Assembly (NCBI GenBank): GCA_001004885.1
Contig: LCRX01000006.1
Coordinates: 35,079 to 99,078 of the forward strand
DNA: 64,000 nucleotides
Source: Candidatus Magasanikbacteria bacterium GW2011_GWA2_56_11
GTDB lineage: Bacteria; Patescibacteriota; Patescibacteriia; Magasanikbacterales; UBA922
Direction: 5' to 3'
Shown one piece after another: positions 7,150 to 24,012 of the stretch. Position numbers and translations under genes: made by a program. Numbering within the stretch: the first letter of the stretch is position 1; each line of letters opens with the position of its first letter. The notes beneath the pieces are model-generated. The model worked only from the letters and a program-made list of their open reading frames with translations, had not been told where the DNA came from and searched no databases.

Positions 7150-7178
7150 AAAACAAAAAACACTTTTGGTAAAGTGTT
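7150..7178 (-). terminator. rho-independent terminator for the minus-strand gene 7254-7517
   Basis: Hairpin AACACTTT-ACCA-AAAGTGTT on the minus strand, followed by a U-tract (an A-run at 7151-7160 on the + strand). Confidence 0.55.
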
Positions 7179-7253
7179 GTGCCGCCCCTCACCGTGAACC
7201 ACGTTGGTCCAGATGAGGGGCGATGCGGGACCGTTGGCGCCGGCGTGGTCGCG

Positions 7254-7811: not shown

Positions 7812-9299
7812 ATGAAAGATCGTCTTCTCCGGATAGCCAACTCGAAAAGCCGCGTTTTTTTCGCTCTCTGTTTATGCTTTCTGGCCGGGGTTTTCGCGGC
7901 CTCGCTTGGCAGCGGCAACGCCGCCCTTCGGGGGCCCTGTCTCACCCTATTGTTCTGTCTCGCCGCCCTGCTTTTTGTCGGTTGGCGTTACGTTCTGCCC
8001 CGTTTGGCCATCATCGGCGTCATCGCCTTCATCGCCGGCAGTCTGCGCTACGCGCAGGCTTACCCGGACGAGCACGCCTACGGAGTACGCAATTTAGCCG
8101 GCCAAACCGTCACGCTCGCGGGCTTTGTAGCCGCGGAGCCCGACATCCGCCTAAGCGATCAGCGGCTTATCGTGAACGTATCGGATCCGCCCGGACGGGT
8201 TTACCTGAAAATTCCTCTCTATCCCCGCTATGCTTACGGGGACAGAGTAAAGATAACCTGCCGGCTAAGACGCCCCGAAGCGATGGCCACTGATAACGGC
8301 CGGGTTTTTCGCTACGATATGTACCTGGCCCGCCTGGGCGTGTTTGCCCTCTGTGAAAATCCGGTAATAGCCAAAATCGGCGGCGGGGAGGGCAGCCGGG
8401 CGCGGGCCGAGATTCTGCGCGCCAAGGCGCTAGTCGCGGGGAAAGTCGAACTTTTGTGGAGCGAGCCGCACGCGAGCTTTATGGCCGGGCTTTTGTACGG
8501 CTATCGCGGCGGTCTGGGCAGCCTGCAGGAGCAGTTTAACCTAACCGGCGTTACGCACATCGTGGCCGTATCTGGCTACAACATTACCATCATAGCGACG
8601 ATTCTCATTTCCCTGTGCACTTATCTCTATATTCCGCGGCAGAGGGCTTTCTGGTTCGTAGTCGCCGGTATTGTCCTGTTTGTCGCTTTCACCGGCGCCT
8701 CGGCCTCGGTGGTCCGGGCGGGAATAATGGGGATAATCGCGCTGCTCGGCAGGCAACTGGGCCGGCCGTCGCGCAGCGGCAATGTGCTTGTTCTGGCGGC
8801 CGCCGTTATGGTCGCGCACAACCCGTTCGTTTTGCTCTCTGATGCCGGGTTCCAACTGTCTTTTCTTTCGACGCTGGGTCTGGTTTACATCAATCCGCTG
8901 ATTAAAAACCGGTTTCTGGCGGTACCGGGGATGTCGGGCCTGAATGAAACTCTCACGAGTACCTTGTCGGCTATTATCGCTACCTGCCCCCTCATTCTCT
9001 ACCAGTTTGGCCGTCTGTCATTGGTGGCTCCGGTGGTAAATATACTTATTCTTTGGCTTATACCCTGGCTCATGCTTCTCGGAGCGGCGGCCGTGGCGGT
9101 AAGTTTTTTTTCCGGTTTTTTGGGCCAGATCGCGGCCGGCATCGCCTGGGTCGGACTCGAGTACATTATTGTCGTGGTGCGCTGGTTTGCCGCCTGGCCG
9201 TGGGCGTCCATATCCGTCGGGTTGCCCTGGTGGGGGATGGCGGCAATGTATTGTGGTATGCTATACCTAGCCGGTAAATATTTCGGTAAGGGACGATAA
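7812..9299 (+). CDS. comEC: ComEC/Rec2 competence protein, membrane core only (DUF4131 plus competence domain)
   Basis: 495-aa polytopic membrane protein with the typical ComEC channel region; it lacks the C-terminal MBL domain. Confidence 0.75.
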   Translation: MKDRLLRIANSKSRVFFALCLCFLAGVFAASLGSGNAALRGPCLTLLFCLAALLFVGWRYVLPRLAIIGVIAFIAGSLRYAQAYPDEHAYGVRNLAGQTVTLAGFVAAEPDIRLSDQRLIVNVSDPPGRVYLKIPLYPRYAYGDRVKITCRLRRPEAMATDNGRVFRYDMYLARLGVFALCENPVIAKIGGGEGSRARAEILRAKALVAGKVELLWSEPHASFMAGLLYGYRGGLGSLQEQFNLTGVTHIVAVSGYNITIIATILISLCTYLYIPRQRAFWFVVAGIVLFVAFTGASASVVRAGIMGIIALLGRQLGRPSRSGNVLVLAAAVMVAHNPFVLLSDAGFQLSFLSTLGLVYINPLIKNRFLAVPGMSGLNETLTSTLSAIIATCPLILYQFGRLSLVAPVVNILILWLIPWLMLLGAAAVAVSFFSGFLGQIAAGIAWVGLEYIIVVVRWFAAWPWASISVGLPWWGMAAMYCGMLYLAGKYFGKGR

Positions 9300-9318
9300 C
9301 ACTTTTTGATAAAGGCTT

Positions 9319-9933
9319 ATGCCAAAAAGACACCGCTCACATAATTCCGCCTCTGGCTATGATCTGGCCAGCAGCGTATACGATAAGAAAGAGGGTTATC
9401 TAAACAGTTTCGAGCAGGGAAAGGCGATACCGCTCCTGGGCCACGTTGCCGGCCGAGAAATTCTGGATGTCGGCGCCGGCACCGGGCGGCTCGCGCTGCC
9501 GCTCGCCTTGTCCGGGGCTCGGGTAACGGCGCTCGATATATCCGCGGGCATGCTCTCGGTGCTCGCGCGCAAAGACCGCGGTAAGCATGTGCGGACAGTG
9601 CTCGGCGAGGCGGAGGCGCTGCCGTTTGCCGGCGAGACGTTTGACGCCGTTACCGCGGCCTTTGTCATCGTGCATCTCAAGGATCCGCGCCGTTTTTTCG
9701 ACGAAGCGTACCGCGTGCTCAAAAACGGCGGATTGTTTTTAATTACCAATATTAACCAAAAAGATCCGCCGGAGATAAACACTCCCGAAGGAAATATAGT
9801 TATCGAATCTTATTACCATCGTCCGGAACGGGTCCGGGAGGTTCTGGCCAAATTGGCGTTTTCAATCGAGCGGGAGGAGACGATACGCGAAAATGGCGTG
9901 TGGATAAACCAGATCATACTGGCTAGAAAATAG
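9319..9933 (+). CDS. class I SAM-dependent methyltransferase
   Basis: Motif I ILDVGAGTGRLALPLA, followed by an acidic motif II. Confidence 0.75.
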   Translation: MPKRHRSHNSASGYDLASSVYDKKEGYLNSFEQGKAIPLLGHVAGREILDVGAGTGRLALPLALSGARVTALDISAGMLSVLARKDRGKHVRTVLGEAEALPFAGETFDAVTAAFVIVHLKDPRRFFDEAYRVLKNGGLFLITNINQKDPPEINTPEGNIVIESYYHRPERVREVLAKLAFSIEREETIRENGVWINQIILARK

Positions 9934-9993
9934 GTTAAAAGTTGCTTTGGCCGCGCGGCTTAGCCGTCGAAACAATGCCCGGCGGGGGAGAAT

Positions 9994-10995
9994 ATGAAAA
10001 AACTTTTGTTCGGTTTTGTTTTCCTGATATTCATCGTCCTGTTCCTGTGGCTCGTCAGCGAGCACGTTGCCCTCTACCTCAGGGCGCGTGTCGCCAAAGA
10101 CCCGGCAGTGGCCGCGGCTTTCCTCGACGTCGGCCAGGGGGACGCCACTTTTATTGAGTTTCCGGATAAGCGGCAGATGCTCGTGGACTGCGGCCGCGAC
10201 GCCCGGGTGCTTGAAGCTCTCGGACGAGTGATGCGGTTTTACGACCGCACGATAGACTACCTGGTAGTTACGCATCCGGACAGTGATCATTACGCCGGCT
10301 GCATTGATGTCCTGCGCCGTTTCAATATCCGGACCATAGTGTACAACGGCGCGCCTAAAAGTTATGACGAATTATGGAATGTTTTCCGCGAGAGTCTAGA
10401 CCAGGAAGTGAAGGCCGGCGCTTTATACGAAGAAATCACCTCTGCCCGGACGGTCGAGATAGGCGGGGCGACTATCCGGTATTTGTATCCGGACCATCCT
10501 CTGTCCGCGGACCCGGCCATTCCGGGGACTAACGAGCGCGCCGACAACAATGGCTCGATCGTGTTCCGGCTTACCTACGGCGTCGGGAATATTCTTATGA
10601 CCGGGGATATGGAAGAGCCGTTGGAAAATTATTTGGTCAGGTTATCCGGAGAGTCGCTTGACTCCGAGGTCCTTAAGGCCGGCCACCACGGCAGCGGTTC
10701 TTCTTCCAGTGAAGTTTTGGTGTCGGCAGTTGCTCCCCGGATGGCGGTCGTTTCCGCCGGCAAAGACAATCCGTACGGACATCCGTCGCCGCGCGTGGTG
10801 AAGCGCCTTGAACGCGCCGGGGCCCGTGTTTTGAGGACGGACCGCGATCATGATATACTACTCGCGTTAACACGCGATTCAGTCTATGTCATCCGGCCCA
10901 AATCACCGCCAGCCGGCGCTAAGGCATTTAGCCGTTTTTTTAGTTTTCCTGGTCTCGGTATTTGGCGGGCCATCGGCCGCCTGGACCGCCTTTAA
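9994..10995 (+). CDS. membrane-anchored metallo-beta-lactamase fold protein (ComEC C-terminal-domain-like)
   Basis: N-terminal TM helix, then HPDSDH and GHHGS metal-binding motifs typical of the ComEC MBL domain. A GGGGAG Shine-Dalgarno lies upstream. Confidence 0.7.
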
Positions 10996-12214
10996 CTTTG
11001 TCGCCAACCAGGGCATTTGGCTCTCCGACGCCAAAGCCTTTGCCGGCGACAAGGTTAAATTGTACACCGTGGTCGTTAACAACGACTTCGCGGCGCTTTC
11101 GGCCAGTGTAAATTTTTATAATAATGACCAACTCATCGGCAGCGCCCAGGCCAATGATATCCAGTTCGAGCAGGCCCGCCAAGTCTGGGTAGAGTACCAG
11201 CTGCCGGCCGGCACGAGCCGGATTACCGCCAGCCTAAGCGACATAATCGTCAAAAAAAATAATGGGGAGCGCTCGCAAATCCCCAACGAAGAGGCAGCTG
11301 GTTCTTTGGCGGTTAAGGAGTTTCAGATAGACCTCGACACCGACGGCGACGAGGTCGGCAATATTCAAGACAGCGACGACGACAACGACGGCCTGGAGGA
11401 TGTCCGCGAACAGGAACTCGGCACGGATCCTCTCAAGATAGACACCGACGCCGACGGTCTGGCCGACGGCGACGAAGTTAGGCTGGCGTTGGATCCCAGG
11501 AAATCCGACACCGACGGCGACGGACGCACCGACAAAGAGGACTTGTTTCCGGCGGACAAAGACGAGTGGGCCGATGCCGACCAAGACGCTCAGGGCGACA
11601 ATGCCGACCCGGACGACGATAACGATAAGCTGCCGGACGCGGACGAAGCCGCGCTGGGCAGCGATCCCCATCAGGCAGATACCGACGGCGACGGTCTGGC
11701 CGACGGCGAGGAAAAAGAGAAGGGGAGCGACCCCACTAAATCAGACTCGGACGGCGACGGTATTAGTGACCCCGATGAAATCAAGGCCGGCACCAAGCCG
11801 GATCAGGCAGATACCGACGGCGACGGTCTCACGGATTTGGAGGAGAAGGAAGGCCGCACCAATCCCAATCAGCCCGATACCGACCTTGACGGCGTGTCCG
11901 ACGGCGACGAGGTCAAGCGCGGAACCGATCCTACCAACACTGACACCGACGGCGACGGAGTCGACGACCTTTCTGATCAGTTTCCGCTCGATCAACGCGA
12001 GGCGCGCGATACCGATCGGGACGGCAGCGGAGACAACGCCGATCCGGACGATGACAACGACAAGGTGAGTGACCAGGATGAAGAGTCGAGCGGCAGCGAC
12101 CCGGCCAAAATTGACACCGACGGCGACCAGTACCTTTATGTCGGCGCCAGTTTGTCTTTTTTGGCGTTTTTGGCCGTTGCCGCCCTGTATGCCAAGGGGC
12201 GCGGCCGGCAATAG
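10886..12214 (+). CDS. secreted/anchored thrombospondin type 3 repeat (Ca-binding DxDxDG) protein
   Basis: Signal-peptide-like N-terminus, at least 12 DTDGDGxxDxxE repeats, and a C-terminal hydrophobic anchor. The DNA also carries internal direct repeats. The start is uncertain because it overlaps the preceding gene by ~110 nt. Confidence 0.65.
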
Positions 12215-12320
12215 ATGTATAAAGGATCGGCGATGTGGTATACTTTACGTTATTCGAAGTGAACTCCATTTCGGCACACCCCGGCCTTCGTTTGCGGCCG
12301 GTCGCATGACGATTTAAGTT

Positions 12321-13457
12321 ATGGGTATTTTCGGCCACAAGATAGAGTCCTACATTGGCGTCGATATCGGAGCCCACGGCGTCAAGCTGGTGGAGTTGAG
12401 AAAAAACAAAGGCCGGCCGCAGCTGTGGACCTATGGTTTGGTGGACAAGAATTTGGATATACACCTTTCCGCCGTCGGCGAGAGAGGCATACCGGAATTA
12501 CGCGCCGAGCAGACTGGGGGCGGGCGGTCAACTCCGGCCGAAGTTTTGCCGTCCACCCTCGAGACCGATGAGAGACGGATAGCCGAGTACGCTGAACTGC
12601 TCAAGGTAATAGTCAAAAAAGCCCGCGTAGAGGGCCGCCGGGCAGTCTCCAGCATTCCTGTATCTTCGGTTTTTCACACCGTAATCAACCTGCCGAAAGT
12701 GGAGCCCAAGGAGGTCGACGCCCTGGTGCGGGCCGAAGTGGCCAAGGTGTTGCCGCGGCCTCTCGAAGAGATGCAAGTGGTCCACCAGCCGGTACCGCTC
12801 GACAAAGAGGCCGAAAAAAAATATTTGCGGCTGCTCGTAACGGCAGCGCCAAAGAATTTCGTCGCTTTTTACACCTCTGTGTTCCGTCGCGCCGGCCTGG
12901 AACTTAGCGAACTCGAGACCGAAGCTTTCGCCCTCGCCCGGTCGCTAGTCGGCCGCGACCAGTCGGTTTCCATGCTTATTGACATCGGTGCCGAGAGGAC
13001 CAATTTTTCCATTATCGACCAGGGACTGCCCATGACCCAGCGCAGTCTCCAGATCGGCGGCAACAACATTGACGCTGTTTTGGCCGAGATACTGGGGTTG
13101 CCGATCGAGCCGGTGGGCAAGCTGGTGCACGACCTGTCCTATCTCCCTCCAGAGACTTTGCGCGCCGAACCGTTTGTGCGGCTCTTGGAGCCTATCGTCA
13201 AAGAGATACAGTATCATTTCGATCTCTACCTTCACCAAAGCGGCAATGAGGGCAAACGGCCCGAAAAAATTATTTTGACCGGCGGCGTGGCGCTTTTCCC
13301 GCCGGTTATGAGCTATATTAAACGATTTTTTCCCTTGCGCGTTTTCATCGGCGATCCTTGGGCCCGGGTGATTTACCAAGATAAACTAAAGACCATTATC
13401 GGCGAGCTCGGACCCAGAATGGCAGTGAGTATCGGGTTGGCGTTGCGTAATTTTTGA
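12321..13457 (+). CDS. pilM: type IV pilus assembly protein PilM (actin-like ATPase fold)
   Basis: 378 aa with an N-terminal IGVDIGAHGVKLVEL motif (the PilM/FtsA-like fold); it lies next to the pilin and PilD genes. Confidence 0.75.
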   Translation: MGIFGHKIESYIGVDIGAHGVKLVELRKNKGRPQLWTYGLVDKNLDIHLSAVGERGIPELRAEQTGGGRSTPAEVLPSTLETDERRIAEYAELLKVIVKKARVEGRRAVSSIPVSSVFHTVINLPKVEPKEVDALVRAEVAKVLPRPLEEMQVVHQPVPLDKEAEKKYLRLLVTAAPKNFVAFYTSVFRRAGLELSELETEAFALARSLVGRDQSVSMLIDIGAERTNFSIIDQGLPMTQRSLQIGGNNIDAVLAEILGLPIEPVGKLVHDLSYLPPETLRAEPFVRLLEPIVKEIQYHFDLYLHQSGNEGKRPEKIILTGGVALFPPVMSYIKRFFPLRVFIGDPWARVIYQDKLKTIIGELGPRMAVSIGLALRNF

Positions 13458-13585
13458 GGGTCCGGGCGCGGCGGCATCTTGGCGGCCGACCGATCGTGGG
13501 CAAAGCGGGGTATTGAGTCTATCCACATCCAGAGTTAACATCCAGGAGGAATTTGAGTATACTAGAGGAAATTGTTTTTTATTCT

Positions 13586-13969
13586 ATGGCTGATAGCAAA
13601 CAAGTCCACGTGATGCTGGTTGAGGACGACATTTTTTTGGCTAACATATACAAGACTAAGTTCGAGATGGAAGGTTTCAAAGTAAGCACCGCGGACAACG
13701 GCGAGACAGGATTGGAAGAGGTCAAGAAAAAACGCCCGGACGTAGTGCTTTTAGACATCCTTTTGCCCAAAATGGACGGTTTCGCGGTCTTGAGCGCTCT
13801 TAAATCCGACCCGGAGTTAAAGGGCATCCCGGTTATCCTGCTTACGAATCTGGGACAGAAGGATGACGTCGACAAGGGCATCGAGCTCGGCGCGGTAGAC
13901 TATCTGATCAAGGCCCATTTCAAACCCTCGGAAACCGTAGAAAAAGTTAAACAGGCGCTTAAGCGGTAA
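13586..13969 (+). CDS. stand-alone response regulator receiver (CheY-like)
   Basis: Reading MLVEDD ... VVLLDILLP ... DYLIKA places the conserved Asp and Lys positions, and there is no output domain. An alternative TTG start lies at 13553. Confidence 0.75.
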   Translation: MADSKQVHVMLVEDDIFLANIYKTKFEMEGFKVSTADNGETGLEEVKKKRPDVVLLDILLPKMDGFAVLSALKSDPELKGIPVILLTNLGQKDDVDKGIELGAVDYLIKAHFKPSETVEKVKQALKR

Positions 13970-14028
13970 CTCTGGGTTTTCCCAAGCACACAGCCGGAAT
14001 AATCCTTACCCTGAAGGGAGGTGATAAG

Positions 14029-14466
14029 ATGAACAAGAAAGGTTTTACATTGATCGAGCTTTTGGTGGTCATTGCCATTATCGCCCTGTTATCCACGCTG
14101 GCGGTGGTAGCGTTGGGTTCGGCGCGTAAAAAGGCTAATGATGCGAAACGGTTGTCGGACGTAAAACAAATGCAGACCGCTCTCGAGTTGTTTTATACGG
14201 ACAAGAATACCTACCCGACGACGACCGCTTCGGGAATTACACTTGGTGCGGGTAGCGCTGCTTGTCTCAACGGCGGCGGTTTTGCAGCCACAGGTTGTGC
14301 CAACGCCTATATGGGACAGGTGCCGGAAGATCCGGGGAGCACCGATTACACCTATACCTCCACTGACGGTACTAGTTACACGATTACCGCGACCCTCGAG
14401 TCCGGTGCCGGCAATTTGAGTGCCGGAGGCGTCGAAGCGAGCCCGTCGGGCATCAAGAACCAGTAA
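14029..14466 (+). CDS. type IV pilin / pseudopilin
   Basis: N-terminal KGFTLIELLVVIAIIALL prepilin cleavage and methylation motif, with a GGGAGGTGA Shine-Dalgarno 7 nt upstream. Confidence 0.85.
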   Translation: MNKKGFTLIELLVVIAIIALLSTLAVVALGSARKKANDAKRLSDVKQMQTALELFYTDKNTYPTTTASGITLGAGSAACLNGGGFAATGCANAYMGQVPEDPGSTDYTYTSTDGTSYTITATLESGAGNLSAGGVEASPSGIKNQ

Positions 14467-14475
14467 CGCGATTCT

Positions 14476-14504
14476 AAAAAATGTCCCGATCGGGGCATTT
14501 TTTA
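14476..14504 (+). terminator. rho-independent terminator after the pilin gene
   Basis: Hairpin ATGTCCCGATCGGGGCAT flanked by AAAAAA and TTTTTT, which suggests it may work in both directions. Confidence 0.55.
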
Positions 14505-14538
14505 GTGGCGCCAATTGTGCTATACTTAGAACCTGCTT

Positions 14539-14688
14539 GAACTCGCAGCGAGCCCCCTTCGCCTCAAACAGAGACTGGTTTTCACGGCCCCAAAACTCGC
14601 TCTTACAGGCTCAGACATTGGTGCCGCGAAAATCAGTCTATGTTTCGGCTCGACTTAGGAGAGAATTGCTAATAACTTAGTATCAGTT
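14539..14688 (+). repeat. ~150-bp intergenic repeat element, copy A (second copy at 18240-18391)
   Basis: About 90% identical to the 18240-18391 copy. It contains an internal inverted repeat, which is imperfect in this copy. Confidence 0.8.
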
Positions 14689-14808
14689 CCTTCCAAAAAA
14701 GAGACGGAAGTCATTTTTTAAAAGCAGGTTCTGGTTAGATTTGGGAATTTATCGCCAAATATCCGCCAAATTGCCCTGGAATTTTTTTGGCAGACGTTCT
14801 AAATATAT

Positions 14809-15582
14809 ATGGCAGTTATGCCGGTTATAATTTTTTTTCTTGGCCTGGCTTTTGGCAGTTTTTTGAACGCGCTCGAGTGGCGGCTGGCGCATGGCTGGTC
14901 CGTTTTTCAGGGCCGTTCGCAATGCACCCGGTGCGCCCGGCGGCTCGCCTGGTGGGAGAACATGCCGGTGGTGAGTTTTTTGCTGCTTCGGGGCAGGTGC
15001 CGGAGTTGCCGGCAGCCCATTTCCCTCCAGTATCCTCTGGTGGAATTGATTGTGGCCGCTCTCTGGGTGTTTTCATGGTATCGGGCCGGAGAGCCGGCCG
15101 TGGCCTCTTTGGAGTTTGTCGGGGCGGCGCGGGCGGCAGTAATCGTCTGGCTGTCCGTATTTCTCTTTGTTTACGATTTAAAACACCAGGAGGTGCCTGA
15201 CGGTCCGGTATTAGGCGGGGCGCTGGTCATTTTTTTGCTGGCCCTGGTTACCGGCGAGCCTTCTTGGGGGGTCATGCTGATTGGCGCCGCTGCCGGCGCC
15301 GGCTTTTTTCTTTGGCAATATCTGCTGTCCCGAGGCCGCTGGATTGGCGGCGGCGATGTCCGTATCGGACTTTTTATCGGTCTGGCCGTCGGCTGGCCCA
15401 TGGTAGTCTTTGCCCTCATGGCCGCCTATATTATCGGCGCGGTCGTCAGTGTGGTCCTCGTCTCCTGGCGTCTCCAGTCGTTCTCCGGCCGCACTCCTTT
15501 CGGTACTTACTTGTCATTAGCCTTGCTTTTGGCCCTTTGGTTTGGCCCCGGCATTGTCGGCTGGTACCTCTCCCTTTTTTAG
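14809..15582 (+). CDS. pilD: prepilin peptidase PilD (A24 family)
   Basis: N-terminal CTRCARR...CRSCRQ tetra-Cys zinc motif, then a polytopic membrane domain with conserved Asp-containing loops. Confidence 0.8.
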   Translation: MAVMPVIIFFLGLAFGSFLNALEWRLAHGWSVFQGRSQCTRCARRLAWWENMPVVSFLLLRGRCRSCRQPISLQYPLVELIVAALWVFSWYRAGEPAVASLEFVGAARAAVIVWLSVFLFVYDLKHQEVPDGPVLGGALVIFLLALVTGEPSWGVMLIGAAAGAGFFLWQYLLSRGRWIGGGDVRIGLFIGLAVGWPMVVFALMAAYIIGAVVSVVLVSWRLQSFSGRTPFGTYLSLALLLALWFGPGIVGWYLSLF

Positions 15583-15643
15583 GGGCCGGCATCGGGCGGC
15601 TATTTGGCCACCCGGTTTTGTGCACATCAATTATTAAAAATCC

Positions 15644-15672
15644 TTGACGCTCAAGACAAAATCCGGTATTAT
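15644..15672 (+). promoter_or_regulatory. sigma70-like promoter upstream of the ATP synthase operon
   Basis: TTGACG, a 17-bp spacer, then TATTAT. Confidence 0.5.
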
Positions 15673-15705
15673 ACTGGCGTTTTATATCTTTCTTTACAGC
15701 CTCGT

Positions 15706-15984
15706 ATGCCGCTCCTCACCAGCCCGAAAGACCGACGTTTTGCGCTTTTGGGGCTGCGCATAACCGGGGATTTCGGCGCCACGATCGCTGTACCGATAGT
15801 TGGTTTCGTTCTGGCCGGACAGTGGCTCGACAAGCGGTACGCGGCCGGACCGTGGTTCACGATTGCTGCTTTTCTGCTTTCGGCACTTCTTTCCGGTCGG
15901 ATGATTTACCGCAAGGCGAAAGCTTACGGCCGGGAATACCAGGCGCTTCTTAACGAGAAGGACGATCAAAAACCGCTGCGTTGA
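15706..15984 (+). CDS. AtpZ/AtpI-like small membrane protein (first gene of the F1Fo operon)
   Basis: Two TM helices with GDFGATIAVPIVGFVLAGQWLDKRY-type spacing. It sits directly upstream of atpB. The ATG at 15706 was chosen because the ORF-track start lies upstream of the promoter. Confidence 0.5.
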   Translation: MPLLTSPKDRRFALLGLRITGDFGATIAVPIVGFVLAGQWLDKRYAAGPWFTIAAFLLSALLSGRMIYRKAKAYGREYQALLNEKDDQKPLR

Positions 15985-16012
15985 ACGAAGGTATCATTGA
16001 AACAGATAAATT

Positions 16013-16798
16013 ATGGCCGAGATTCACATTCCGACTCTGGCTCCCGAAGTGCTGGCGCATGTGGGGCCAGTGGCTATCACCAACACCATGGTCAATACCT
16101 GGCTGGCGTTGGTGATATTCGCGGTGCTCGGCGTCATAATTACGCGGCAGGCCAGCTTGCGGCCCGGCAAGCTTCAAAACGGGGCGGAATACATTTTGGA
16201 ACAGCTCCTGGGTTATTTTGACCAGGTAACCGGCGACCCGGCCAAGACGCGGCGGTTTCTTCCCCTCGTCGGTTCGATTTTCTTTTTTATCCTGCTCTCA
16301 AATTGGCTGGGACTCTTGCCGGGAACCGGCAGCCTTTCGTACGGACACAGTTTTGTCCTGCGGCCGGCCAATACCGATCTTAATTTGACGCTGGCCATGG
16401 CCTTGACTTCGGTGGCCGCTTCGCATCTGTTCGGCTTTATCACCGTCGGATTTTTTAGCCACGCCGGTAAATTTTTTCAAATCAAAGGCATCTTCCGGAG
16501 TTTGACCAAAGGGCCGGTCGCTATCTTTACCGCTGTCATTGAGTTTATGGTCGGACTGATCGAAATTGTGAGCGAAGCCGCCAAAGTCTTGTCGCTGTCC
16601 CTGCGGTTGTTCGGCAACATTTTTGCCGGCGAGGTGCTTATTTCCGTCATCAGCGCCTTGGTAACGGCTTTGGTTCCGACGCCGTTTATGCTTTTGGAAC
16701 TGCTGGTTGGCCTGATTCAGGCTTCGGTTTTCGCCATGTTGACACTGGTGTATCTGACTGTCGCGAGCGAGGCGCCGCACGGGTCGGAGGAGCATTAG
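16013..16798 (+). CDS. atpB: F0F1 ATP synthase subunit a
   Basis: 261 aa and polytopic, with the conserved Arg-containing LSLSLRLFGNIFAGE helix. Confidence 0.9.
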   Translation: MAEIHIPTLAPEVLAHVGPVAITNTMVNTWLALVIFAVLGVIITRQASLRPGKLQNGAEYILEQLLGYFDQVTGDPAKTRRFLPLVGSIFFFILLSNWLGLLPGTGSLSYGHSFVLRPANTDLNLTLAMALTSVAASHLFGFITVGFFSHAGKFFQIKGIFRSLTKGPVAIFTAVIEFMVGLIEIVSEAAKVLSLSLRLFGNIFAGEVLISVISALVTALVPTPFMLLELLVGLIQASVFAMLTLVYLTVASEAPHGSEEH

Positions 16799-16904
16799 AC
16801 CGAGTTCTACTTAACGGTTCAGGGACAACAGCCGGCCAAGCCCGGACGCTGTCCCTGAACGGTTGGGCAGAATAAATTATTAATTGATACCGCCGCGAGG
16901 CTAA

Positions 16905-17180
<276 letters not shown>

Positions 17181-17254
17181 ACCGACTCTGTCCCGTAGCC
17201 GTGCTAGGGGACAGGTCTCGGATAATTTCACTTTTTGCCTTTTACTAACATTCT

Positions 17255-17824
17255 ATGAGTGCCGTTACTGAAATCGCCGTGACCGAATCGGCTCCGGTGG
17301 CCGAGCTATCCGAAACCACCGCGGCCGAGGGCGGAGTGGCCGCTTCGCTCGGGCTTAACGCCCAGCTGTTTGGCTGGCAATTATTGAATTTTGCCGTGGT
17401 CGCGCTAATCGTGTGGTTCCTCATCCTCAAGCCGCTGGCCAAAAAAATGGAAGAGCGCCGGAAGATAATCGACGACAGTCTGGATCAGGCGCGCGAGATC
17501 GAAACCCGGCACGCCCTAAGTCGGGAGCAGTACCAGACAGCGGTGGCCGAGGCCAAGGCCGAGGCCAACCGGATAGTCGCCTCGGCGCACGACGAAGCGG
17601 CGGCGCTTGCCGGCCAGATGAAAGGCGAGACTAAGAAAGAGATCGACGTTCTGGTATCCCAGGCCAAGAAAAATATCGAGCTTGACCGCCAGAATATGCA
17701 GCAGGAAGTAAAAAAAGAGATAGTGGACGTGGTGATCGCGGCCGTGGAAAAAATTCTCGAAGAGAAGCTCGACGAGAAAGAAGACCGTAAACTCGTCGAA
17801 GGGGCCCTTAAAAGCATCAAATAA
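17255..17824 (+). CDS. atpF: F0F1 ATP synthase subunit b
   Basis: Single N-terminal TM helix followed by a long charged helix. Confidence 0.8.
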   Translation: MSAVTEIAVTESAPVAELSETTAAEGGVAASLGLNAQLFGWQLLNFAVVALIVWFLILKPLAKKMEERRKIIDDSLDQAREIETRHALSREQYQTAVAEAKAEANRIVASAHDEAAALAGQMKGETKKEIDVLVSQAKKNIELDRQNMQQEVKKEIVDVVIAAVEKILEEKLDEKEDRKLVEGALKSIK

Positions 17825-17832
17825 CCATTGCT

Positions 17833-18225
17833 ATGCGCAAATTATTGCCGCGCCATTTCGGGAAAATGCTCTACCAGCTTACGCGGGATCTTCCGGAAAA
17901 AGAACTGGACCAGGCGGTGGCAGAGTTCGTGAAATTTATGGCGCGGCACCGGGCTTTTCGCCGCCTGGATCGCATTATCGCGGCTTACGAGGTCTACGCT
18001 CGGGAGCAGGACGGTGCCGAGGATATTACCCTCGTGAGCGCCCGCCCCTTACCCGAGGCGCTGGCCGCGAAAGTAGTCAGCCATTTTGGCCGCGGGGGCA
18101 AGATTGAAACGATTGTGGACGAAACCCTTATCGGCGGACTGATAGTCAAAACCCGCCGCCGCGTTCTCGACGCCAGCGTCAAAACGCAGTTGCGCGGTCT
18201 TAAAAACGACATGTTGGCGGATTGA
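17833..18225 (+). CDS. atpH: F0F1 ATP synthase subunit delta (short, 130 aa)
   Basis: The C-terminal LIGGLIVKTRRRVLDASVKTQL matches the OSCP/delta C-terminal domain; the N-terminal domain is much shorter than usual. Confidence 0.7.
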   Translation: MRKLLPRHFGKMLYQLTRDLPEKELDQAVAEFVKFMARHRAFRRLDRIIAAYEVYAREQDGAEDITLVSARPLPEALAAKVVSHFGRGGKIETIVDETLIGGLIVKTRRRVLDASVKTQLRGLKNDMLAD

Positions 18226-18239
18226 CCCGCTGTTTTACA

Positions 18240-18391
18240 GAACTCACAGCGAGCCCCCTTCGCCGAAACATAGACTGATTTTCGCGGCGCCAAAACTCGC
18301 TCTTGTGGGCTCAGACATTGGTGCCGCGAAAATCAGTCTATGTTTCGGCTCAACTTAGAGAAGAGAATTGCTAATAACTCACTATCAGTTT
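18240..18391 (+). repeat. ~150-bp intergenic repeat element, copy B, with a 27-bp perfect stem
   Basis: GCCGAAACATAGACTGATTTTCGCGGC (18273-18299) is the exact reverse complement of GCCGCGAAAATCAGTCTATGTTTCGGC (18332-18358), with a ~32-nt loop between them. The element lies between atpH and atpA. Confidence 0.85.
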
Positions 18392-18423
18392 ACACTTAAT
18401 TCAGGCAAGTTTGTTCACCGCGT

Positions 18424-19917
18424 ATGTCTTACACTGATCAGGTTATCACTTCTCTCAAAAAAAACGTGGCTTCGTTCGAGAAGCGCGTGGATGTCTCCGA
18501 GGTTGGCACCGTTATTGAAGTCGGCGACGGCATCGCCCGCATGGACGGCCTGGATAAATGCCAGGCGCTCGAGATGCTTGAATTCCCCGGCGGAATTTTC
18601 GGTATTGCCCTCAACCTGGAAGAGGAAACCGTCGGCGCGATTATTTTGGGCGACTTCAAAAAAATTAAAGAAGGCGACAGCGTTAAGCGCACCGGCCGCA
18701 TTATGTCCATCCCGGTAGGCGAGGCGATGATCGGACGCGTGGTCAATTCTCTCGGCGAAGCGGTTGACGGCCGGGGAAAAATCAAGACAGAAACTCTCTA
18801 TCCGCTTGAACGCGTGGCGCCGGGCGTGATTACCCGCGAGCCGGTGAACCGGCCGCTGCAGACCGGCATCAAGGCCATAGACGCCCTCATACCCATCGGC
18901 CGCGGCCAGCGCGAGCTTATTATCGGCGACCGCCAGACCGGGAAAACCGCCGTGGCCATAGACGCTATTATCAACCAAAAAGGCCAAAACGTGATCTGCG
19001 TCTATGTGGCTGTCGGGCAGAAAGAATCAAAGGTGGCCCGCGTGGTGGCCAAGCTCAAAGAGGCCGGCGCCATGGAGTACACGACGGTCTTTATCGCCGG
19101 CGCCTCCGAACCGGCCCCGATGTCTTATCTGGCCCCGTACGCCGGTGTCTCTCTCGCCGAGTACTTTGCCGACAAGGGCAAGGACGTACTCATAATTTAC
19201 GATGATTTGACCAAGCAGGCCTGGGCCTACCGCGAGATGTCCCTTTTGCTCCGCCGGCCGCCGGGACGCGAGGCTTATCCGGGCGATGTTTTCTATCTCC
19301 ACTCCCGTCTTTTGGAGCGCGCCTGCAATCTGAACAAAGAGCATGGTGGCGGCTCCATCACCGCGCTGCCCATTATCGAGACGCAGGCCGGAGATATCAG
19401 CGCCTATATTCCGACCAACGTTATCTCGATCACCGACGGCCAGATTTTTCTGGAAACTGAATTGTTTTACCGCGGCATCCGCCCGGCCTTGAACGTCGGT
19501 TTGTCCGTCTCGCGCGTCGGCGGTTCTGCCCAAATTAAACCCATGAAAAAAGTGGCCGGTAGCATGAAGCTCGCGCTGGCCCAATTCCGCGAACTGGAAG
19601 CGTTCGCGCAATTTTCTAGTGATCTTGATCCAGAAACCAAAAAGCAAATTGAGCGTGGTCGTCGTATTACCGAACTCCTCAAACAGCCGCAATATTCACC
19701 CATGCCGGTGGCGTCGCAGGTAATGATTATTTACGCCGTGAACAATGGTTTCTTTGATAGTACCGAAATCAGCGCTATTACCGAAAAGCAAAACGCGTTT
19801 GTGGAATTTATGAGTTCGGCGAAGAGCGCGCTATTAGATAAAATTAGTGCCGGTGAATGGAATGAAGAAACGGAAAAAACGATCGCATCATCTTGCGAAG
19901 AATTTTTTACTAAATAA
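18424..19917 (+). CDS. atpA: F0F1 ATP synthase subunit alpha
   Basis: Walker A motif GDRQTGKT. The last ~100 codons are markedly lower in GC. Confidence 0.95.
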
Positions 19918-19926
19918 TTAAATTAT

Positions 19927-20550
19927 ATGGGAGAATTTGAAAGAACTCCACGCTCCCTAGAACAAGTATTAAGTGAACGAGGTTTGACCATTGACCCTAT
20001 CGCGGCAGTTCCTGACCATATAACTATCAGACCCCTTGCTAAGGAACTACAAGTGAAAGCTAAAATTGATGTCCTCGGAATTGCTACTGTTGTTTTCTTT
20101 GAAAATCCAGAAGAGGCGGGAAAATTTATGGCAGTCTGGTGCTTCAATGGAGAAGAAACAACGAGAAAATATGGCAATAGGATTGACGTAGAAGCAGAAG
20201 TGGCGGAGTCAATTGAACTTAATTTGCGCAGTGAAAAAGAAAAAAACGAAGCTGTTGTCGAATTATATTCATTAGTTAATAGATACGGCGGCTCTATAAA
20301 GGAAATTCGTGAATTCCCCGCAGATTTAGATGGCACGGGTTCATTTTATATGAAACCTTCAGATTTTGGTCCCGAAGGCCGTACTGTTTTAAGGATGGAT
20401 TTTCCACACGGGATAACGATTTTGTCCTTGCCAGTTTCTGGTCGCGAATTGTATGTCGGTCTTTTTAAGAACGGAAAGTATCAGGGCGGAAATGGAGATT
20501 TTTCGGTTCACGAAATAGAGTCTAATATCAGAATTCTAAACGAAGGATAA
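19927..20550 (+). CDS. hypothetical protein inserted between atpA and atpG (low GC)
   Basis: 207-aa ORF with no recognisable motif. Its composition is far more AT-rich than the surrounding operon. Confidence 0.6.
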   Translation: MGEFERTPRSLEQVLSERGLTIDPIAAVPDHITIRPLAKELQVKAKIDVLGIATVVFFENPEEAGKFMAVWCFNGEETTRKYGNRIDVEAEVAESIELNLRSEKEKNEAVVELYSLVNRYGGSIKEIREFPADLDGTGSFYMKPSDFGPEGRTVLRMDFPHGITILSLPVSGRELYVGLFKNGKYQGGNGDFSVHEIESNIRILNEG

Positions 20551-20558
20551 ATGGTTAT

Positions 20559-21503
20559 ATGGCCGTCAATTCCAAAGCAATTAAACAACGCATCAAGTCG
20601 GTTAAGAACACCAAAAAAATGACCAAGGCCATGGAAATGGTCTCGGCCGCGAAGATGCGCAAAGCCGTCCAGGGTACGCTCGCCACCAGAAGCTACGCGG
20701 TCATGGCGCGCGAGCTCATGGAGGCGCTTTCGGCCGGCATCGAGGTCCAGTCTCCGCTTCTCGAGTACCGCCCGGTGGCGCGGCTTTTGGTGGTGCTTAT
20801 CAGCTCCAATCGCGGACTTTGCGGCAGCTTTAACGCGAATATCTTCAAAAAGGCCAGGCAAATTTTACGGGAGAAACAAAGCCTCGGCCGCCACCGCACG
20901 GCCCGCGGCGAAACGATCGAGCCGGCGGCCGAGATCGCCATTGACATTCTTGGCGTCGGCAAGAAGAGCGCCTGGTTCGCGCGCCAGTCCGGCTATCCGC
21001 TCGTGGCCGCGTTTGACGAGCTTTCCGAGCGGCCCACATTCGAAGAAATCATTCCGATCACGCGCTTCGTGATGGACGCTTTCAGCCAGAAAACTTATGA
21101 CAAGGTCGCCGTTTTGTTCACCGATTACAAGTCGAGTTTGGCCCAGGAAGTGAAGGTCAGACAGCTATTGCCCATTTCGGCTCACGACCTGGAAAAAATG
21201 CTTCGAGACTCGGTTGGGGATGCCGGCGATCCGCGCGGCATCGACTCCGAACATTACGTATTTGAGCCTAGCCCGTCGTTGATCGTACAGACCGTTTTAC
21301 CGCGGCTGGCGGAGGTACAGCTGTATCAGGGAATTTTGGAATCAGCGGCCAGCGAGCACAGCGCCCGCATGGTGGCGATGAAGAGCGCCACCGAAGCGGC
21401 GGGCGAGATGATTGATATGCTGACATTAGAATTCAATAAGGCGCGGCAGGCTTCCATTACTCAAGAAATCGCCGAGATTGCCGGGGGCGCGGCCGCTCTG
21501 TAA
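20559..21503 (+). CDS. atpG: F0F1 ATP synthase subunit gamma
   Basis: N-terminal MAVNSKAIKQRIKSVKNTKKMTKAMEMVSAAKMRKA is the gamma-subunit signature. Confidence 0.9.
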   Translation: MAVNSKAIKQRIKSVKNTKKMTKAMEMVSAAKMRKAVQGTLATRSYAVMARELMEALSAGIEVQSPLLEYRPVARLLVVLISSNRGLCGSFNANIFKKARQILREKQSLGRHRTARGETIEPAAEIAIDILGVGKKSAWFARQSGYPLVAAFDELSERPTFEEIIPITRFVMDAFSQKTYDKVAVLFTDYKSSLAQEVKVRQLLPISAHDLEKMLRDSVGDAGDPRGIDSEHYVFEPSPSLIVQTVLPRLAEVQLYQGILESAASEHSARMVAMKSATEAAGEMIDMLTLEFNKARQASITQEIAEIAGGAAAL

Positions 21504-21527
21504 TAATACACTTAGACACTAGAATAA

Positions 21528-22922
<1,395 letters not shown>

Positions 22923-22930
22923 TCTTTCCT

Positions 22931-23269
22931 ATGAGTAGAGACCGAGAATCGAGGCCAATAAGCCTGATGAGAGAAATGTTGCGTCAGGATTACGCCCAGG
23001 GGGTTCGTATTCTGGCGCGCGACGTCCTGGCGGTGCAGAAAGAACCGGATTGGTCCGGCTATGTCGCCGAGGTGATTGAACATGCCCGGACTGGCGAAAC
23101 ACGCAATCCGGAAGTAGACGCCATTTTGGCGCGGATACTCATGAAAAAACATTATTTAACTCTCGAAGAGATAGTAGCGATATCCGATGACGTCGCCCGA
23201 GAGTGCCTTGTTCTCCTCGGGGGAGATATAGCCGATCATTATGCAGAGTCCGGACAAGCTACAATTTAA
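22931..23269 (+). CDS. hypothetical protein (112 aa) between atpD and atpC
   Basis: Its only support is that it fills a 318-bp gap inside the operon; there is no Shine-Dalgarno and no recognisable motif. Confidence 0.3.
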   Translation: MSRDRESRPISLMREMLRQDYAQGVRILARDVLAVQKEPDWSGYVAEVIEHARTGETRNPEVDAILARILMKKHYLTLEEIVAISDDVARECLVLLGGDIADHYAESGQATI

Positions 23270-23669
23270 GCTCGTTACTCCCGATGGCATCGTCTACGAC
23301 GACGCCATCGACCAGGTCAGCATCCCGACAGCCGCGGGCGAGATTACGGTTTTGCCGCGTCATATTCCGCTCGTTTCGATTATCAGCGCGGGAGAACTAA
23401 GGCTAAAAAAGGATGGCGCCGAGATACCGCTCGTAGTCTCCGGCGGTGTTCTGGAGATTCGTCCGGGCAGCCAACTTTACGTTCTGGCCGATACCGCGGA
23501 GAGAGCCGAGCATATCGACATGGAACGCGCGGAAGCGGCCCGGGCGCGCGCCGAAGAGCTTATGAAACAGAAGGAACAGATGGCCGATGTCGACTTTGCC
23601 CGCTTGCAGGCCAAAATGGAAAAAGAACTGGCCCGCCTGCGCGTCGGCAGAAAGTACCGGAAAATTTAG
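23241..23669 (+). CDS. atpC: F0F1 ATP synthase subunit epsilon
   Basis: N-terminal beta-sandwich (LVTPDGIVYDDAIDQVSIPTAAGEITVLP) plus a C-terminal helical hairpin. Confidence 0.85.
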   Translation: MQSPDKLQFKLVTPDGIVYDDAIDQVSIPTAAGEITVLPRHIPLVSIISAGELRLKKDGAEIPLVVSGGVLEIRPGSQLYVLADTAERAEHIDMERAEAARARAEELMKQKEQMADVDFARLQAKMEKELARLRVGRKYRKI

Positions 23670-23765
23670 CCGGCGGCAGCCAGGATTCTCTCTCCCCGAC
23701 GCGCCCGGCTTGGTGCCGCCTTTGGCTCGGGCGCGGATGTCCTCCAGACCGGACTCTCTGCCCCC

Positions 23766-23794
23766 TTGACATCAGACCGGGTTTCGGATATATT
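23766..23794 (+). promoter_or_regulatory. near-consensus sigma70 promoter
   Basis: TTGACA, a 17-bp spacer, then TATATT. Confidence 0.6.
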
Positions 23795-23838
23795 GTTTTG
23801 TACGTTTATCCTTATTCATCTATCTATCCTAATCGTAT

Positions 23839-23958
23839 ATGAAGTGCTCACAGTGCGCGACCATGATCGAGGGGGACATGCAGTGCCCTGATTGCGGGGT
23901 GTGCGAGCTGTGCTGCAATTGCAGCACCATGTCGTACGACAGCTCGGCCGAGGAATAG
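23839..23958 (+). CDS. 39-aa cysteine-rich peptide (8 Cys; CxxC-x9-CxxC-xx-CxxCC-x-C)
   Basis: ATG...TAG, translating to MKCSQCATMIEGDMQCPDCGVCELCCNCSTMSYDSSAEE. It sits between a consensus promoter and a clean terminator. It is not in the ORF track because it is shorter than 60 aa. Confidence 0.5.
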   Translation: MKCSQCATMIEGDMQCPDCGVCELCCNCSTMSYDSSAEE

Positions 23959-23983
23959 CTCTCGGTTTGGCATTTTATTGAAT

Positions 23984-24012
23984 CCCGCAGAGAGCTGCGG
24001 GTTTTTATTTTG
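23984..24012 (+). terminator. rho-independent terminator
   Basis: CCCGCAG-AGAG-CTGCGGG followed by TTTTTATTTT. Confidence 0.65.

What the first reader, a model, noticed from the sequence alone, without database searches (positions are those of the whole stretch)
18240..18391. Copy B of the repeat element: a 27-bp perfect stem-loop between atpH and atpA
Bases 18273-18299 (GCCGAAACATAGACTGATTTTCGCGGC) are exactly complementary to 18332-18358, with a ~32-nt loop, and there is no downstream T-tract. It sits inside an essential operon between the delta and alpha genes. Candidate roles are an mRNA processing or stability element (for example an RNase III substrate setting subunit stoichiometry), a MITE-like mobile element, or a small RNA.
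Basis: seen in the sequence. Interest (0 to 1): 0.55.

Follow-up and report, generated by a model that had tools for sequence, protein, structure and literature searches.

The report
Small mobile repeat inside ATP-synthase operon
The perfect hairpin between the ATP-synthase delta and alpha genes is one of at least 43 copies of a roughly 155-base non-coding jumping element (a MITE) in a groundwater candidate-phyla-radiation bacterium; it is not a conserved operon regulator, but the family sits unusually often just after promoters.

Summary
The hairpin is real. RNA folding gives -63.9 kcal/mol, z = -14.

It is the core of a 152-nt element (18240-18391) with 16-bp terminal inverted repeats, flanked by a 3-bp direct duplication (ACA). 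Copy A (14539-14689, duplication CTT) is 91% identical.

The genome is Candidatus Magasanikbacteria GW2011_GWA2_56_11. It holds at least 43 distinct copies. Of 36 full-length copies, 25 have a perfect 3-bp target-site duplication, against 0-4 at control offsets.

Three relatives (AtpA 83-85% identical) have only 6-23 nt between atpH and atpA and no element. There is no Rfam, plasmid, phage or viral match.

Verdict: a MITE insertion that is co-transcribed with the atp operon, not a conserved atp regulatory RNA. RNase III cleavage is plausible but untested.

One feature is unusual. In 22 of 36 copies the element lies 10-13 nt downstream of a sigma-70 -10 box (background 8.8%, p = 6e-15). In 29 of 32 it points the same way as the next gene. 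Whether this reflects target choice or survivor selection is unresolved. No partner transposase was found.

The parts
18240..18391 (+). MITE copy B, whole element (152 nt), between atpH and atpA
   Evidence: Full-length match (model positions 1-152) to the family profile. Borders are set by the alignment of 43 copies with flanks.
18237..18239 (.). Left copy of the 3-bp target-site duplication (ACA)
   Evidence: ACA directly flanks both ends. Family-wide, 25 of 36 copies have a perfect 3-bp direct repeat at this offset, against 0-4 at control offsets.
18392..18394 (.). Right copy of the 3-bp target-site duplication (ACA)
18240..18255 (+). 5' terminal inverted repeat (GAACTCACAGCGAGCC; family consensus GAACTCACAGCGAGTT)
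   Evidence: The family consensus matches the reverse complement of the 3' end (GAACTGATAGTGAGTT) at 13 of 16 positions.
18376..18391 (+). 3' terminal inverted repeat (AACTCACTATCAGTTT; family consensus ends ...CAGTTC)
18262..18293 (+). Left arm of the inner 32-bp stem
   Evidence: Across 36 copies, 97.7% of stem cells are paired and 3 pairs show compensatory changes.
18294..18317 (+). Loop of the inner hairpin. It carries a third TIR-like word, and it is exactly reverse-complemented in 5 of 36 family members.
   Evidence: Alignment A2.
18318..18349 (+). Right arm of the inner stem
18368..18396 (+). Weak candidate hybrid promoter: TTGCTA inside the element, 17 nt, then TACACT spanning the element's last base and the flank. 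Inference only.
   Evidence: Read from the sequence. It matches 8 of 12 consensus positions, below the 9 of 12 threshold of the promoter scan, which did not report it.
14539..14689 (+). MITE copy A (151 nt), between the pseudopilin gene and the prepilin-peptidase gene
   Evidence: It is 91% identical to copy B. Its inner stem is imperfect (-38.1 kcal/mol).
14536..14538 (.). Left target-site duplication of copy A (CTT)
14690..14692 (.). Right target-site duplication of copy A (CTT)
14518..14526 (+). Extended -10 box TGCTATACT, ending 12 nt upstream of copy A
   Evidence: The same geometry is seen in 22 of 36 family members.
17833..18225 (+). atpH (delta subunit, 130 aa). Its stop codon lies 14 nt before the element, and the gene is intact.
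   Evidence: Pfam OSCP. Relatives have a delta subunit of 130-133 aa.
18424..19917 (+). atpA (alpha subunit, 497 aa). Its start codon lies 32 nt after the element, and the gene is intact.
   Evidence: Pfam. It has the same MSYTD N-terminus as the relatives.

Best explanation
The hairpin is the core of a miniature inverted-repeat transposable element (MITE), a 150-158-nt non-coding derivative of a cut-or-copy-and-paste DNA transposon. A transposase supplied in trans (not identified here) recognised the 16-bp terminal inverted repeats. It made a 3-bp staggered cut at ACA in the short atpH-atpA spacer and inserted the element, and repair of the stagger produced the flanking ACA/ACA duplication. 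Both genes stayed intact. The element has no terminator and lies in the sense orientation inside the operon, so it is most likely transcribed as part of the atp mRNA. There its 32-bp stem would form a very stable RNA hairpin. Shown here: element anatomy, target-site duplication, copy number, absence from relatives, and maintenance of stem complementarity. Inferred: the DDE-type mechanism, co-transcription, and any effect on the mRNA (RNase III cleavage, a stability barrier, or a weak outward hybrid promoter TTGCTA-17-TACACT). The atp copy is best read as a tolerated passenger. The family as a whole shows a striking bias for the first few transcribed bases after sigma-70-type promoters, in the sense orientation.
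For: Anatomy and copy number:
- The arms and fold are confirmed.
- A profile built from copies A and B finds 43 distinct copies, 36 of them full-length with both ends. All come from contigs of Candidatus Magasanikbacteria GW2011_GWA2_56_11 or the same population.
- The element's ends are sharp. Consensus GAACTCACAGCGAGTT ... AACTCACTATCAGTTC gives terminal inverted repeats matching at 13 of 16 positions.
- A perfect 3-bp direct repeat flanks 25 of 36 copies, against 0-4 at nine control offsets.
- All 36 copies lie between called genes (one weak ORF from the first, ungreedy call spans one copy).

Absence elsewhere:
- In three relatives with AtpA 83-85% identical, atpH and atpA are 12, 6 and 23 nt apart with no element. 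The window has 198 nt.
- The profile finds no copy in about 40 kb of relatives' loci.
- Rfam gives nothing.
- There is no match in viral contigs, plasmids or phages.
- A scan of 185,579 species genomes gave only 3 single-arm hits that the profile does not recognise. About 1 was expected by chance (my estimate from pattern length and collection size).

Other support:
- Two short metagenome contigs end inside the element, as expected for a repeat.
- Genes downstream of copies are functionally unrelated: iPGM, SOD, MgtE, epimerase, PEBP and others.
- The inner stem is 97.7% paired over 36 copies, with 3 compensatory pairs and 0 of 500 shuffles as good.
Against: No autonomous element or transposase with matching ends was found. 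The search covered about 430 kb of sampled loci, the window, and 20 kb beyond it. Mobilisation is therefore inferred from its footprints only. No presence/absence polymorphism was seen: strain-level contigs from other samples all carry the same insertions. Copies differ by about 13%, so the family looks old and perhaps no longer mobile. The strong promoter-proximal and orientation bias is not expected of a purely neutral parasite. It leaves room for a host-level role. The long inner stem is not at the element's termini and is not explained by the transposition model alone.
Confidence: 0.87

Rival explanations
1. Domesticated leader module. The family, whatever its mobile origin, now serves the host as a 5'-leader or intercistronic RNA element. 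The hairpin would give RNase III processing or 5'-end protection, and the AU-rich 3' tail would act as a translation-initiation platform. On this reading the atp copy modulates expression of atpAGDC relative to atpBEFH.
For: In 22 of 36 copies the element starts 10-13 nt after a -10 box, against an 8.8% background (p = 6e-15). Of those 22 boxes, 12 have a -35 box matching at least 4 of 6 positions and 13 have a TG extension. The next gene runs in the same direction in 29 of 32 cases (p = 1e-6). Half of the copies end within about 23 nt of the start codon, and five end within 0-1 nt. Stem pairing is maintained with compensatory changes. Insertions are fixed across samples.
Against: Downstream genes form no coherent functional set. 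The atp copy has no upstream -10 box and is absent from relatives. The loop is inverted in 5 copies, so its RNA sequence cannot be essential in one orientation. Stem maintenance can equally come from DNA-level homogenisation of a palindrome. Conservation is fairly even along the element. No expression data exist.
Confidence: 0.2
2. Operon-specific processing or stability element. The hairpin evolved in place as an RNase III site or stability barrier that sets delta/alpha or Fo/F1 stoichiometry.
For: It lies exactly between the Fo-plus-delta genes and the F1 genes. It forms a very stable 32-bp duplex with no terminator tail.
Against: It is bounded by terminal inverted repeats and a target-site duplication, and it belongs to a family of at least 43 copies. 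The three nearest relatives have 6-23-nt junctions with no hairpin. There is no Rfam family.
Confidence: 0.04
3. REP/BIME-type extragenic palindrome spread by a RAYT (Y1 tyrosine transposase), or another hairpin-dependent single-strand mechanism.
For: It is a dispersed intergenic palindrome with a maintained stem. Copies show an orientation bias, as expected for single-strand, strand-specific mechanisms.
Against: REPs are 20-40 nt and have neither terminal inverted repeats nor target-site duplications (established knowledge). Here the unit is about 155 nt, with terminal inverted repeats and a 3-bp duplication in 25 of 36 copies. No RAYT-like gene was seen next to copies, although this was not searched exhaustively.
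Confidence: 0.03
4. Independent small-RNA genes. Each copy, with the promoter just upstream, would be a transcription unit for an RNA of about 155 nt.
For: A promoter-like -10 box (often with a -35 box) lies at the right distance to start transcription about 5 nt before the element in 22 of 36 copies.
Against: The promoter-bearing flanks are unrelated in sequence and lie outside the target-site duplication, so they belong to the host. No terminator follows the element. Coding genes start 0-50 nt after most copies. The atp copy has no such promoter. There is no Rfam hit.
Confidence: 0.03

Closest known systems
Correia repeat-enclosed elements (CREE/NEMIS) of Neisseria
   Same: Both are non-coding MITEs of about 100-155 bp with inverted repeats. 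Both have many intergenic copies that are co-transcribed with neighbouring genes. CREE RNA hairpins can be bound or cut by RNase III, and CREE ends can create promoters (abstract of PMC2649163). The element here works most like this family.
   Different: The host is from an unrelated phylum and no sequence relationship is evident. The target-site duplication here is a variable AT-rich triplet, not the TA dinucleotide of CREE (the latter from my own knowledge). The long stem here is internal: 32 bp sitting 22 nt and 42 nt inside the ends, in addition to the 16-bp terminal repeats. RNase III cleavage, IHF binding and promoter creation are untested here.
IS5 / PIF-Harbinger-type transposons and their MITEs (for example Tourist-like elements)
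   Same: They have short terminal inverted repeats and a 3-bp AT-rich target-site duplication (from my own knowledge of ISfinder and eukaryotic classifications). This makes them the most likely kind of partner transposase.
   Different: No transposase was found, so this is a lead only. The observed duplications (AAT, TAT, ACA, CAC, GTT and others) do not follow a strict TNA/TWA rule.
ERIC/IRU, RUP, BOX and SPRITE small repeats of enterobacteria and pneumococci
   Same: All are dispersed, transcribed, imperfect palindromes of about 100-150 bp in intergenic regions. Elements of different families can insert into one another (PMC10969869, section 3.3). Here, family 1 and a second family are nested in both directions.
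   Different: The sequences and hosts differ. None of these families is described in that review as concentrated a few bases downstream of promoter -10 boxes in the sense orientation.
REP/BIME elements with RAYT transposases
   Same: Both are dispersed extragenic palindromes that can stabilise or punctuate mRNAs.
   Different: REPs are much shorter and lack both terminal inverted repeats and target-site duplications. This element has both.

Membership tests
MITE (non-autonomous DNA transposon) | Short (tens to a few hundred bp), with no coding capacity | tested here: met
   Copies are 150-158 nt. The window's ORF list shows only ORFs that run through the element from outside it: 17994-18293 on the minus strand, overlapping atpH, and 18368-18718, which starts at a TTG in the 3' end.
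MITE (non-autonomous DNA transposon) | Terminal inverted repeats | tested here: met
   GAACTCACAGCGAGTT matches the reverse complement of the 3' end, GAACTGATAGTGAGTT, at 13 of 16 positions. The ends are about 92-93% conserved across copies.
MITE (non-autonomous DNA transposon) | Direct target-site duplication of fixed length flanking the element | tested here: met
   A perfect 3-bp duplication occurs in 25 of 36 copies, against 0-4 at control offsets. Copy B has ACA/ACA and copy A has CTT/CTT.
MITE (non-autonomous DNA transposon) | Multiple dispersed copies in unrelated flanks | tested here: met
   There are 43 distinct copies on at least 13 contigs of one genome. Sequence similarity stops at the element's ends.
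MITE (non-autonomous DNA transposon) | Empty sites in related genomes | tested here: met
   The atpH-atpA junction is 6-23 nt in three relatives. The iPGM promoter in a relative lacks the element. These relatives are at family or genus distance only; strain-level contigs are all filled.
MITE (non-autonomous DNA transposon) | A cognate autonomous element or transposase with the same ends | tested here: inconclusive
   No extra terminal-repeat pairs enclosing a gene were found in about 430 kb. No transposase domains were found in the window genes scanned or in the called genes of the 20 kb beyond it. The rest of the genome could not be searched.
Correia element (CREE/NEMIS) | TA target duplication and the Neisseria-type 26-bp inverted repeat (from my own knowledge) | tested here: not met
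   The duplication is 3 bp and variable. The terminal repeats are 16 bp and start GAAC.
Correia element (CREE/NEMIS) | RNA hairpin cleaved or bound by RNase III | not testable with these tools
   The only evidence is structural: a 32-bp duplex at -63.9 kcal/mol.
REP/BIME | A 20-40-nt imperfect palindrome without terminal inverted repeats or target duplication, associated with RAYT | tested here: not met
   The unit is about 155 nt and has both terminal inverted repeats and a target-site duplication. RAYT was not searched for genome-wide.
Intrinsic (rho-independent) terminator | GC-rich stem followed at once by a T-tract | tested here: not met
   The stem is followed by TCAACTTAGAGAAG. The terminator scan reports nothing there on the plus strand.
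Described cis-regulatory RNA or sRNA family (Rfam 15) | Match to a curated covariance model | tested here: not met
   Only sub-threshold chance hits were found in 13500-24000, and none on copy B. Copy A has a 22.6-bit snoRNA hit against a gathering score of 75.
Conserved atp-operon intercistronic element | Present at the same junction in related genomes | tested here: not met
   It is absent in L051, L052/L053 and L054.
Inverton (phase-variable invertible segment) | The same locus found in both orientations within a population, with an invertase | not testable with these tools
   The loop is reverse-complemented in 5 of 36 different loci. No read-level data exist for any single locus.

The most novel reading that the evidence does not exclude
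This MITE family would be integrated, or selectively retained, at a defined position relative to transcription initiation. The 3-bp target lies about +3 to +6 from the predicted start of sigma-70 promoters, mostly in the sense orientation. This holds even where the original leader offered tens to hundreds of other positions, and even when the insertion separates a leaderless-type start codon from its promoter. That would mean one of two things. Either a bacterial transposase reads promoter or open-complex DNA, which would be a prokaryotic counterpart of start-site-targeting eukaryotic elements. Or a candidate-phyla-radiation bacterium has recruited a mobile hairpin as a shared 5'-leader module for dozens of unrelated genes.
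Probability: 0.3. Interest if true: 0.7.

Novelty: new member of a known kind. Interest (0 to 1): 0.42.

Why it matters
For the finding itself, a striking perfect hairpin inside an essential operon turns out to be a mobile-element footprint. It should not be annotated as an atp regulatory RNA.

More broadly, small streamlined candidate-phyla-radiation genomes are usually thought to carry few repeats. This one holds at least 43 copies of one MITE plus a second family, and my literature searches found no paper describing MITEs in this radiation.

The promoter-proximal, sense-oriented placement could go either way. If it reflects target choice, it would be a new kind of insertion specificity for a bacterial transposon. 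If it reflects selection, it shows how a parasite can become the common leader of many mRNAs in an organism that cannot yet be cultured.

It also explains why short-read assemblies of this population break at these sites.

Tried and rejected
- Rfam (E-value mode) over 13.5-24 kb gave nothing relevant.
- Scanning 185,579 species-representative genomes with the arm pattern gave only three single-arm hits in unrelated phyla. The family profile does not recognise them, so they are chance.
- Viral contigs, plasmids and phages gave no match.
- A search for an autonomous partner, using terminal-repeat words outside known copies in all fetched DNA, found nothing. The only hit was the displaced 3' end of a copy split by a nested family-2 element.
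- Pfam scans of window genes and the called genes of the 20 kb beyond the window showed no transposase.
- A search for strain-level empty sites upstream of iPGM and an epimerase found all three alternative contigs filled.
- At first I read the IMG bin Ga0076004 as a second genome sharing the family. Exact protein look-ups show it is the same organism, so I dropped the idea of horizontal transfer between genomes.
- An outward promoter in the 3' end that would restore leaderless transcripts did not hold up. The candidate hexamer CACTAT is CACTAC or CACTGT in most copies, and the scan finds no promoter there.
- The idea that the transposase targets sequences resembling the element's own end fails on register. 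TGCTATACT and CTAATAACT match at only 3 of 9 positions in register.
- The idea that downstream genes form a regulon fails: their functions are diverse.
- A genome-wide signal for leaderless genes was only a weak enrichment of -10 boxes 6-11 nt before ATG codons.
- I looked for terminal repeats around the extra ORFs in the atp operon and found none.

Full report
**Observation.** The 27-nt word GCCGAAACATAGACTGATTTTCGCGGC is at 18262-18288. Its exact reverse complement is at 18323-18349 (0 matches in 100 shuffles). The arms extend to 32 nt (18262-18293 / 18318-18349), with 24 nt between them. As RNA the hairpin folds at -63.9 kcal/mol (z = -14). The 205-nt intergenic region folds at -79 kcal/mol (z = -7.7). 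No T-tract follows the stem. Pfam confirms the neighbouring genes. They are atpI-like (15604-15984), atpB, atpE, atpF, atpH (17833-18225), atpA (18424-19917), an unknown 207-aa ORF, and atpG. By synteny with the called genes of the identical contig L001, atpD and atpC follow. Copy A (14539-14689) is 91% identical over about 150 nt. It lies between a pseudopilin gene and a prepilin-peptidase gene.

**What it is.** A scan of metagenome contigs with a 23-nt arm pattern returned 44 loci. A profile built from copies A and B found full-length matches in nearly all of them. After removing duplicates there are 43 distinct copies, 36 of them with both ends intact.

Exact protein look-ups show that the IMG bin carrying most copies (Ga0076004) is the same organism as the window. 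That organism is Candidatus Magasanikbacteria bacterium GW2011_GWA2_56_11, a candidate-phyla-radiation bacterium from Rifle groundwater.

Aligning the copies with their flanks shows that similarity begins abruptly at GAACTCACAGCGAG and ends at ...CTCACTATCAGTTC. The two ends are inverted repeats matching at 13 of 16 positions.

Immediately outside the ends, 25 of 36 copies carry a perfect 3-bp direct repeat. Nine control offsets give 0-4. Copy B has ACA/ACA and copy A has CTT/CTT. The duplicated triplets are AT-rich and variable (AAT, TAT, ACA, CAC, GTT and others).

The element therefore has small size, no coding capacity, terminal inverted repeats, a fixed-length target duplication and many dispersed copies. 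These are the defining features of a MITE (criteria as in PMC10969869).

**Absence from relatives.** The nearest AtpA relatives found are 83-85% identical. In them the atpH-atpA spacer is 12, 6 and 23 nt, with the same MSYTD start of atpA and no hairpin. The window's spacer is 198 nt: 152 nt of element, 3 nt of duplication and 43 nt of spacer. The profile finds no copy in any relative's locus. A scan of 185,579 species genomes gave only three chance single-arm hits. Viral contigs, plasmids and phages have nothing, and Rfam has no match. The hairpin is therefore a lineage-specific insertion, not a conserved part of atp operons.

**Age and state.** Copies are on average 87% identical to each other. 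Contigs of the same population from other samples carry the same insertions at the three loci checked. No autonomous element with these ends was found in about 430 kb of sampled DNA, in the window, or in 20 kb beyond it. The family looks old and fixed, and its transposase is unidentified.

**Internal anatomy.** The inner stem stays complementary across copies. Of its cells, 97.7% are paired, three pairs show both-sided changes (for example A-U 13 / G-C 12 at one pair), and 0 of 500 shuffles do as well. Sequence alone cannot say whether this reflects selection on an RNA or DNA hairpin or homogenisation between the arms.

In 5 of 36 copies the loop is the exact reverse complement of the usual loop. 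This is a DNA-level flip between the inverted arms, and it means the loop's RNA sequence is not needed in one orientation. The loop also contains a third TIR-like word.

**Unexpected family-level pattern.** In 22 of 36 copies a -10-like hexamer ends 10-13 nt upstream of the element's first base. The hexamer was defined as A at position 2, T at position 6, and at least 4 of 6 matches to TATAAT. Only 8.8% of intergenic positions in the same DNA meet this criterion (p = 6e-15).

Of these 22 boxes, 13 have a TG extension and 12 have a -35 hexamer matching at least 4 of 6 positions at 16-18 nt. From uniform base composition I estimate that about 11% would be expected to have such a -35 box. The flanks are otherwise unrelated and lie outside the duplication, so these are host promoters.

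Three further copies (L007, L038, L050) have the same geometry with a promoter reading in from the other side.

The next gene runs in the same direction as the element in 29 of 32 cases (p = 1e-6). Half the copies end within about 23 nt of the start codon.

Where the remaining leader is long (26 to more than 200 nt in 11 copies), the insertion still lies within a few bases of the predicted transcription start. The position is therefore tied to the promoter, not to the start codon.

In several cases the insertion splits a leaderless-type arrangement. At iPGM the sequence reads TATAAT, 10 nt, ATG, with the duplication TAT overlapping the start codon. A 72%-identical ortholog in a relative has TTGATA-17-TATACT-9-ATG with no element.

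Downstream genes are functionally diverse. Copy B is one of the exceptions: it has no upstream -10 box and sits at an operon-internal junction.

**How it most likely works at the atp locus.** Shown: a clean intergenic insertion, with both genes intact, in the sense orientation and without a terminator. Inferred: the element is transcribed within the atp mRNA, where its 32-bp duplex forms. Such a duplex is long enough to be a substrate for RNase III. In Neisseria, Correia elements of similar size are bound or cut by RNase III and can create promoters (PMC2649163).

A weak hybrid promoter (TTGCTA-17-TACACT, 18368-18396) can be read across the right end. It matches only 8 of 12 consensus positions and was not called by the scan. 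Nothing indicates that the element was selected for atp regulation.

**Comparison and novelty.** It works like Correia, ERIC or RUP-type bacterial MITEs. It is not a member of any of them: the host, the ends and the 3-bp variable duplication all differ. It is not a REP, because it has terminal inverted repeats and a duplication. It is not a terminator, a known Rfam RNA, or a conserved atp element.

The 3-bp AT-rich duplication points, from general knowledge, to an IS5/PIF-Harbinger-like transposase. This is untested.

I found no paper describing MITEs in the candidate phyla radiation. A recent review of prokaryotic MITE insertion preferences lists intergenic and 3'-UTR locations but no start-site-proximal bias.

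I therefore file the finding as a new member of a known kind. The promoter-proximal, orientation-biased distribution is an open and more interesting question.

Noticed in passing
window 14528-14538 + 14690-14732; window about 59925-60085; L034 1597-1758; L043 6639-6800; L044 6996-7156; L049 3744-3904; L027 1009-1057: There is a second MITE-like family of about 162 nt, with short variants of about 50 nt. Its near-perfect terminal inverted repeats read AGAACCTACTCCCAAAAATAA, which makes each end look like a terminator. Copy A of the main family is inserted inside a short member of this family. In L034 the nesting is reversed: a family-2 element sits inside a family-1 copy. Several family-2 copies directly follow TATACT/TATATT boxes or lie between convergent genes.
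   Followed up: partly
window 19927-20550: A 207-aa ORF with no Pfam match is wedged between atpA and atpG, with 9-nt and 8-nt gaps. The three nearest relatives go straight from atpA to atpG. NCBI annotates a 140-aa hypothetical protein here (KKW42488.1).
   Followed up: partly
window 22931-23269: An extra ORF of about 100-112 aa with no Pfam match on record fills a 318-nt gap between atpD and atpC. In relatives L052 and L054 that gap is 15-53 nt. No inverted repeats bound the extra segment.
   Followed up: partly
window 17833-18225 and relatives L051, L052, L054: The ATP-synthase delta subunit is only 130-133 aa in this lineage. It matches only positions 56-172 of the 172-position OSCP profile, so the usual N-terminal part is missing.
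   Followed up: no
window 14809-15582: A prepilin-peptidase gene lies between the pseudopilin gene and atpI. In relative L054 the pilin gene is followed directly by atpI.
   Followed up: no
L024 2643-2739, 3260-3410, 4215-4362: Three copies (one half-copy, one lacking its last 3 nt, one complete) cluster around rplI and a 247-aa Era-like GTPase ORF. That ORF starts right at the end of an element and appears to lack the N-terminal P-loop region. This could be a transposon-associated adjacent deletion or rearrangement.
   Followed up: no
L049 about 340-515; L059 2463-2503; L019, L033, L034, L021 copies: Promoters with the -10 box only 9-10 nt before the ATG suggest leaderless or near-leaderless mRNAs for several genes of this lineage. 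Other genes have a clear AAGGAGG Shine-Dalgarno sequence (L045, L024). A genome-wide check gave only a weak enrichment.
   Followed up: partly
window 10886-12214 (repeats 11336-12127): The 66-nt-period repeats listed by the repeat finder encode bacterial thrombospondin type-3 (TSP3) calcium-binding repeats in a 442-aa protein. A gene downstream of one MITE copy (L019) also carries a TSP3 repeat.
   Followed up: no
L002 (ends at 3377) and L003 (ends at 2489): Two independent short-read contigs stop inside copy B, 84-95 nt into the element. A third (L056) starts inside the iPGM copy. These are assembly breaks caused by the repeat.
   Followed up: yes
L062 compared with window 1-13500: A contig from another sample has the same gene order but differs in places. 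The PEP-utilising protein is 438 aa against 481 aa, there are extra small ORFs and a LysE gene, and a 333-aa metallo-beta-lactamase-fold gene sits where the window has a 71-aa ORF. This indicates strain-level variation in this region.
   Followed up: no
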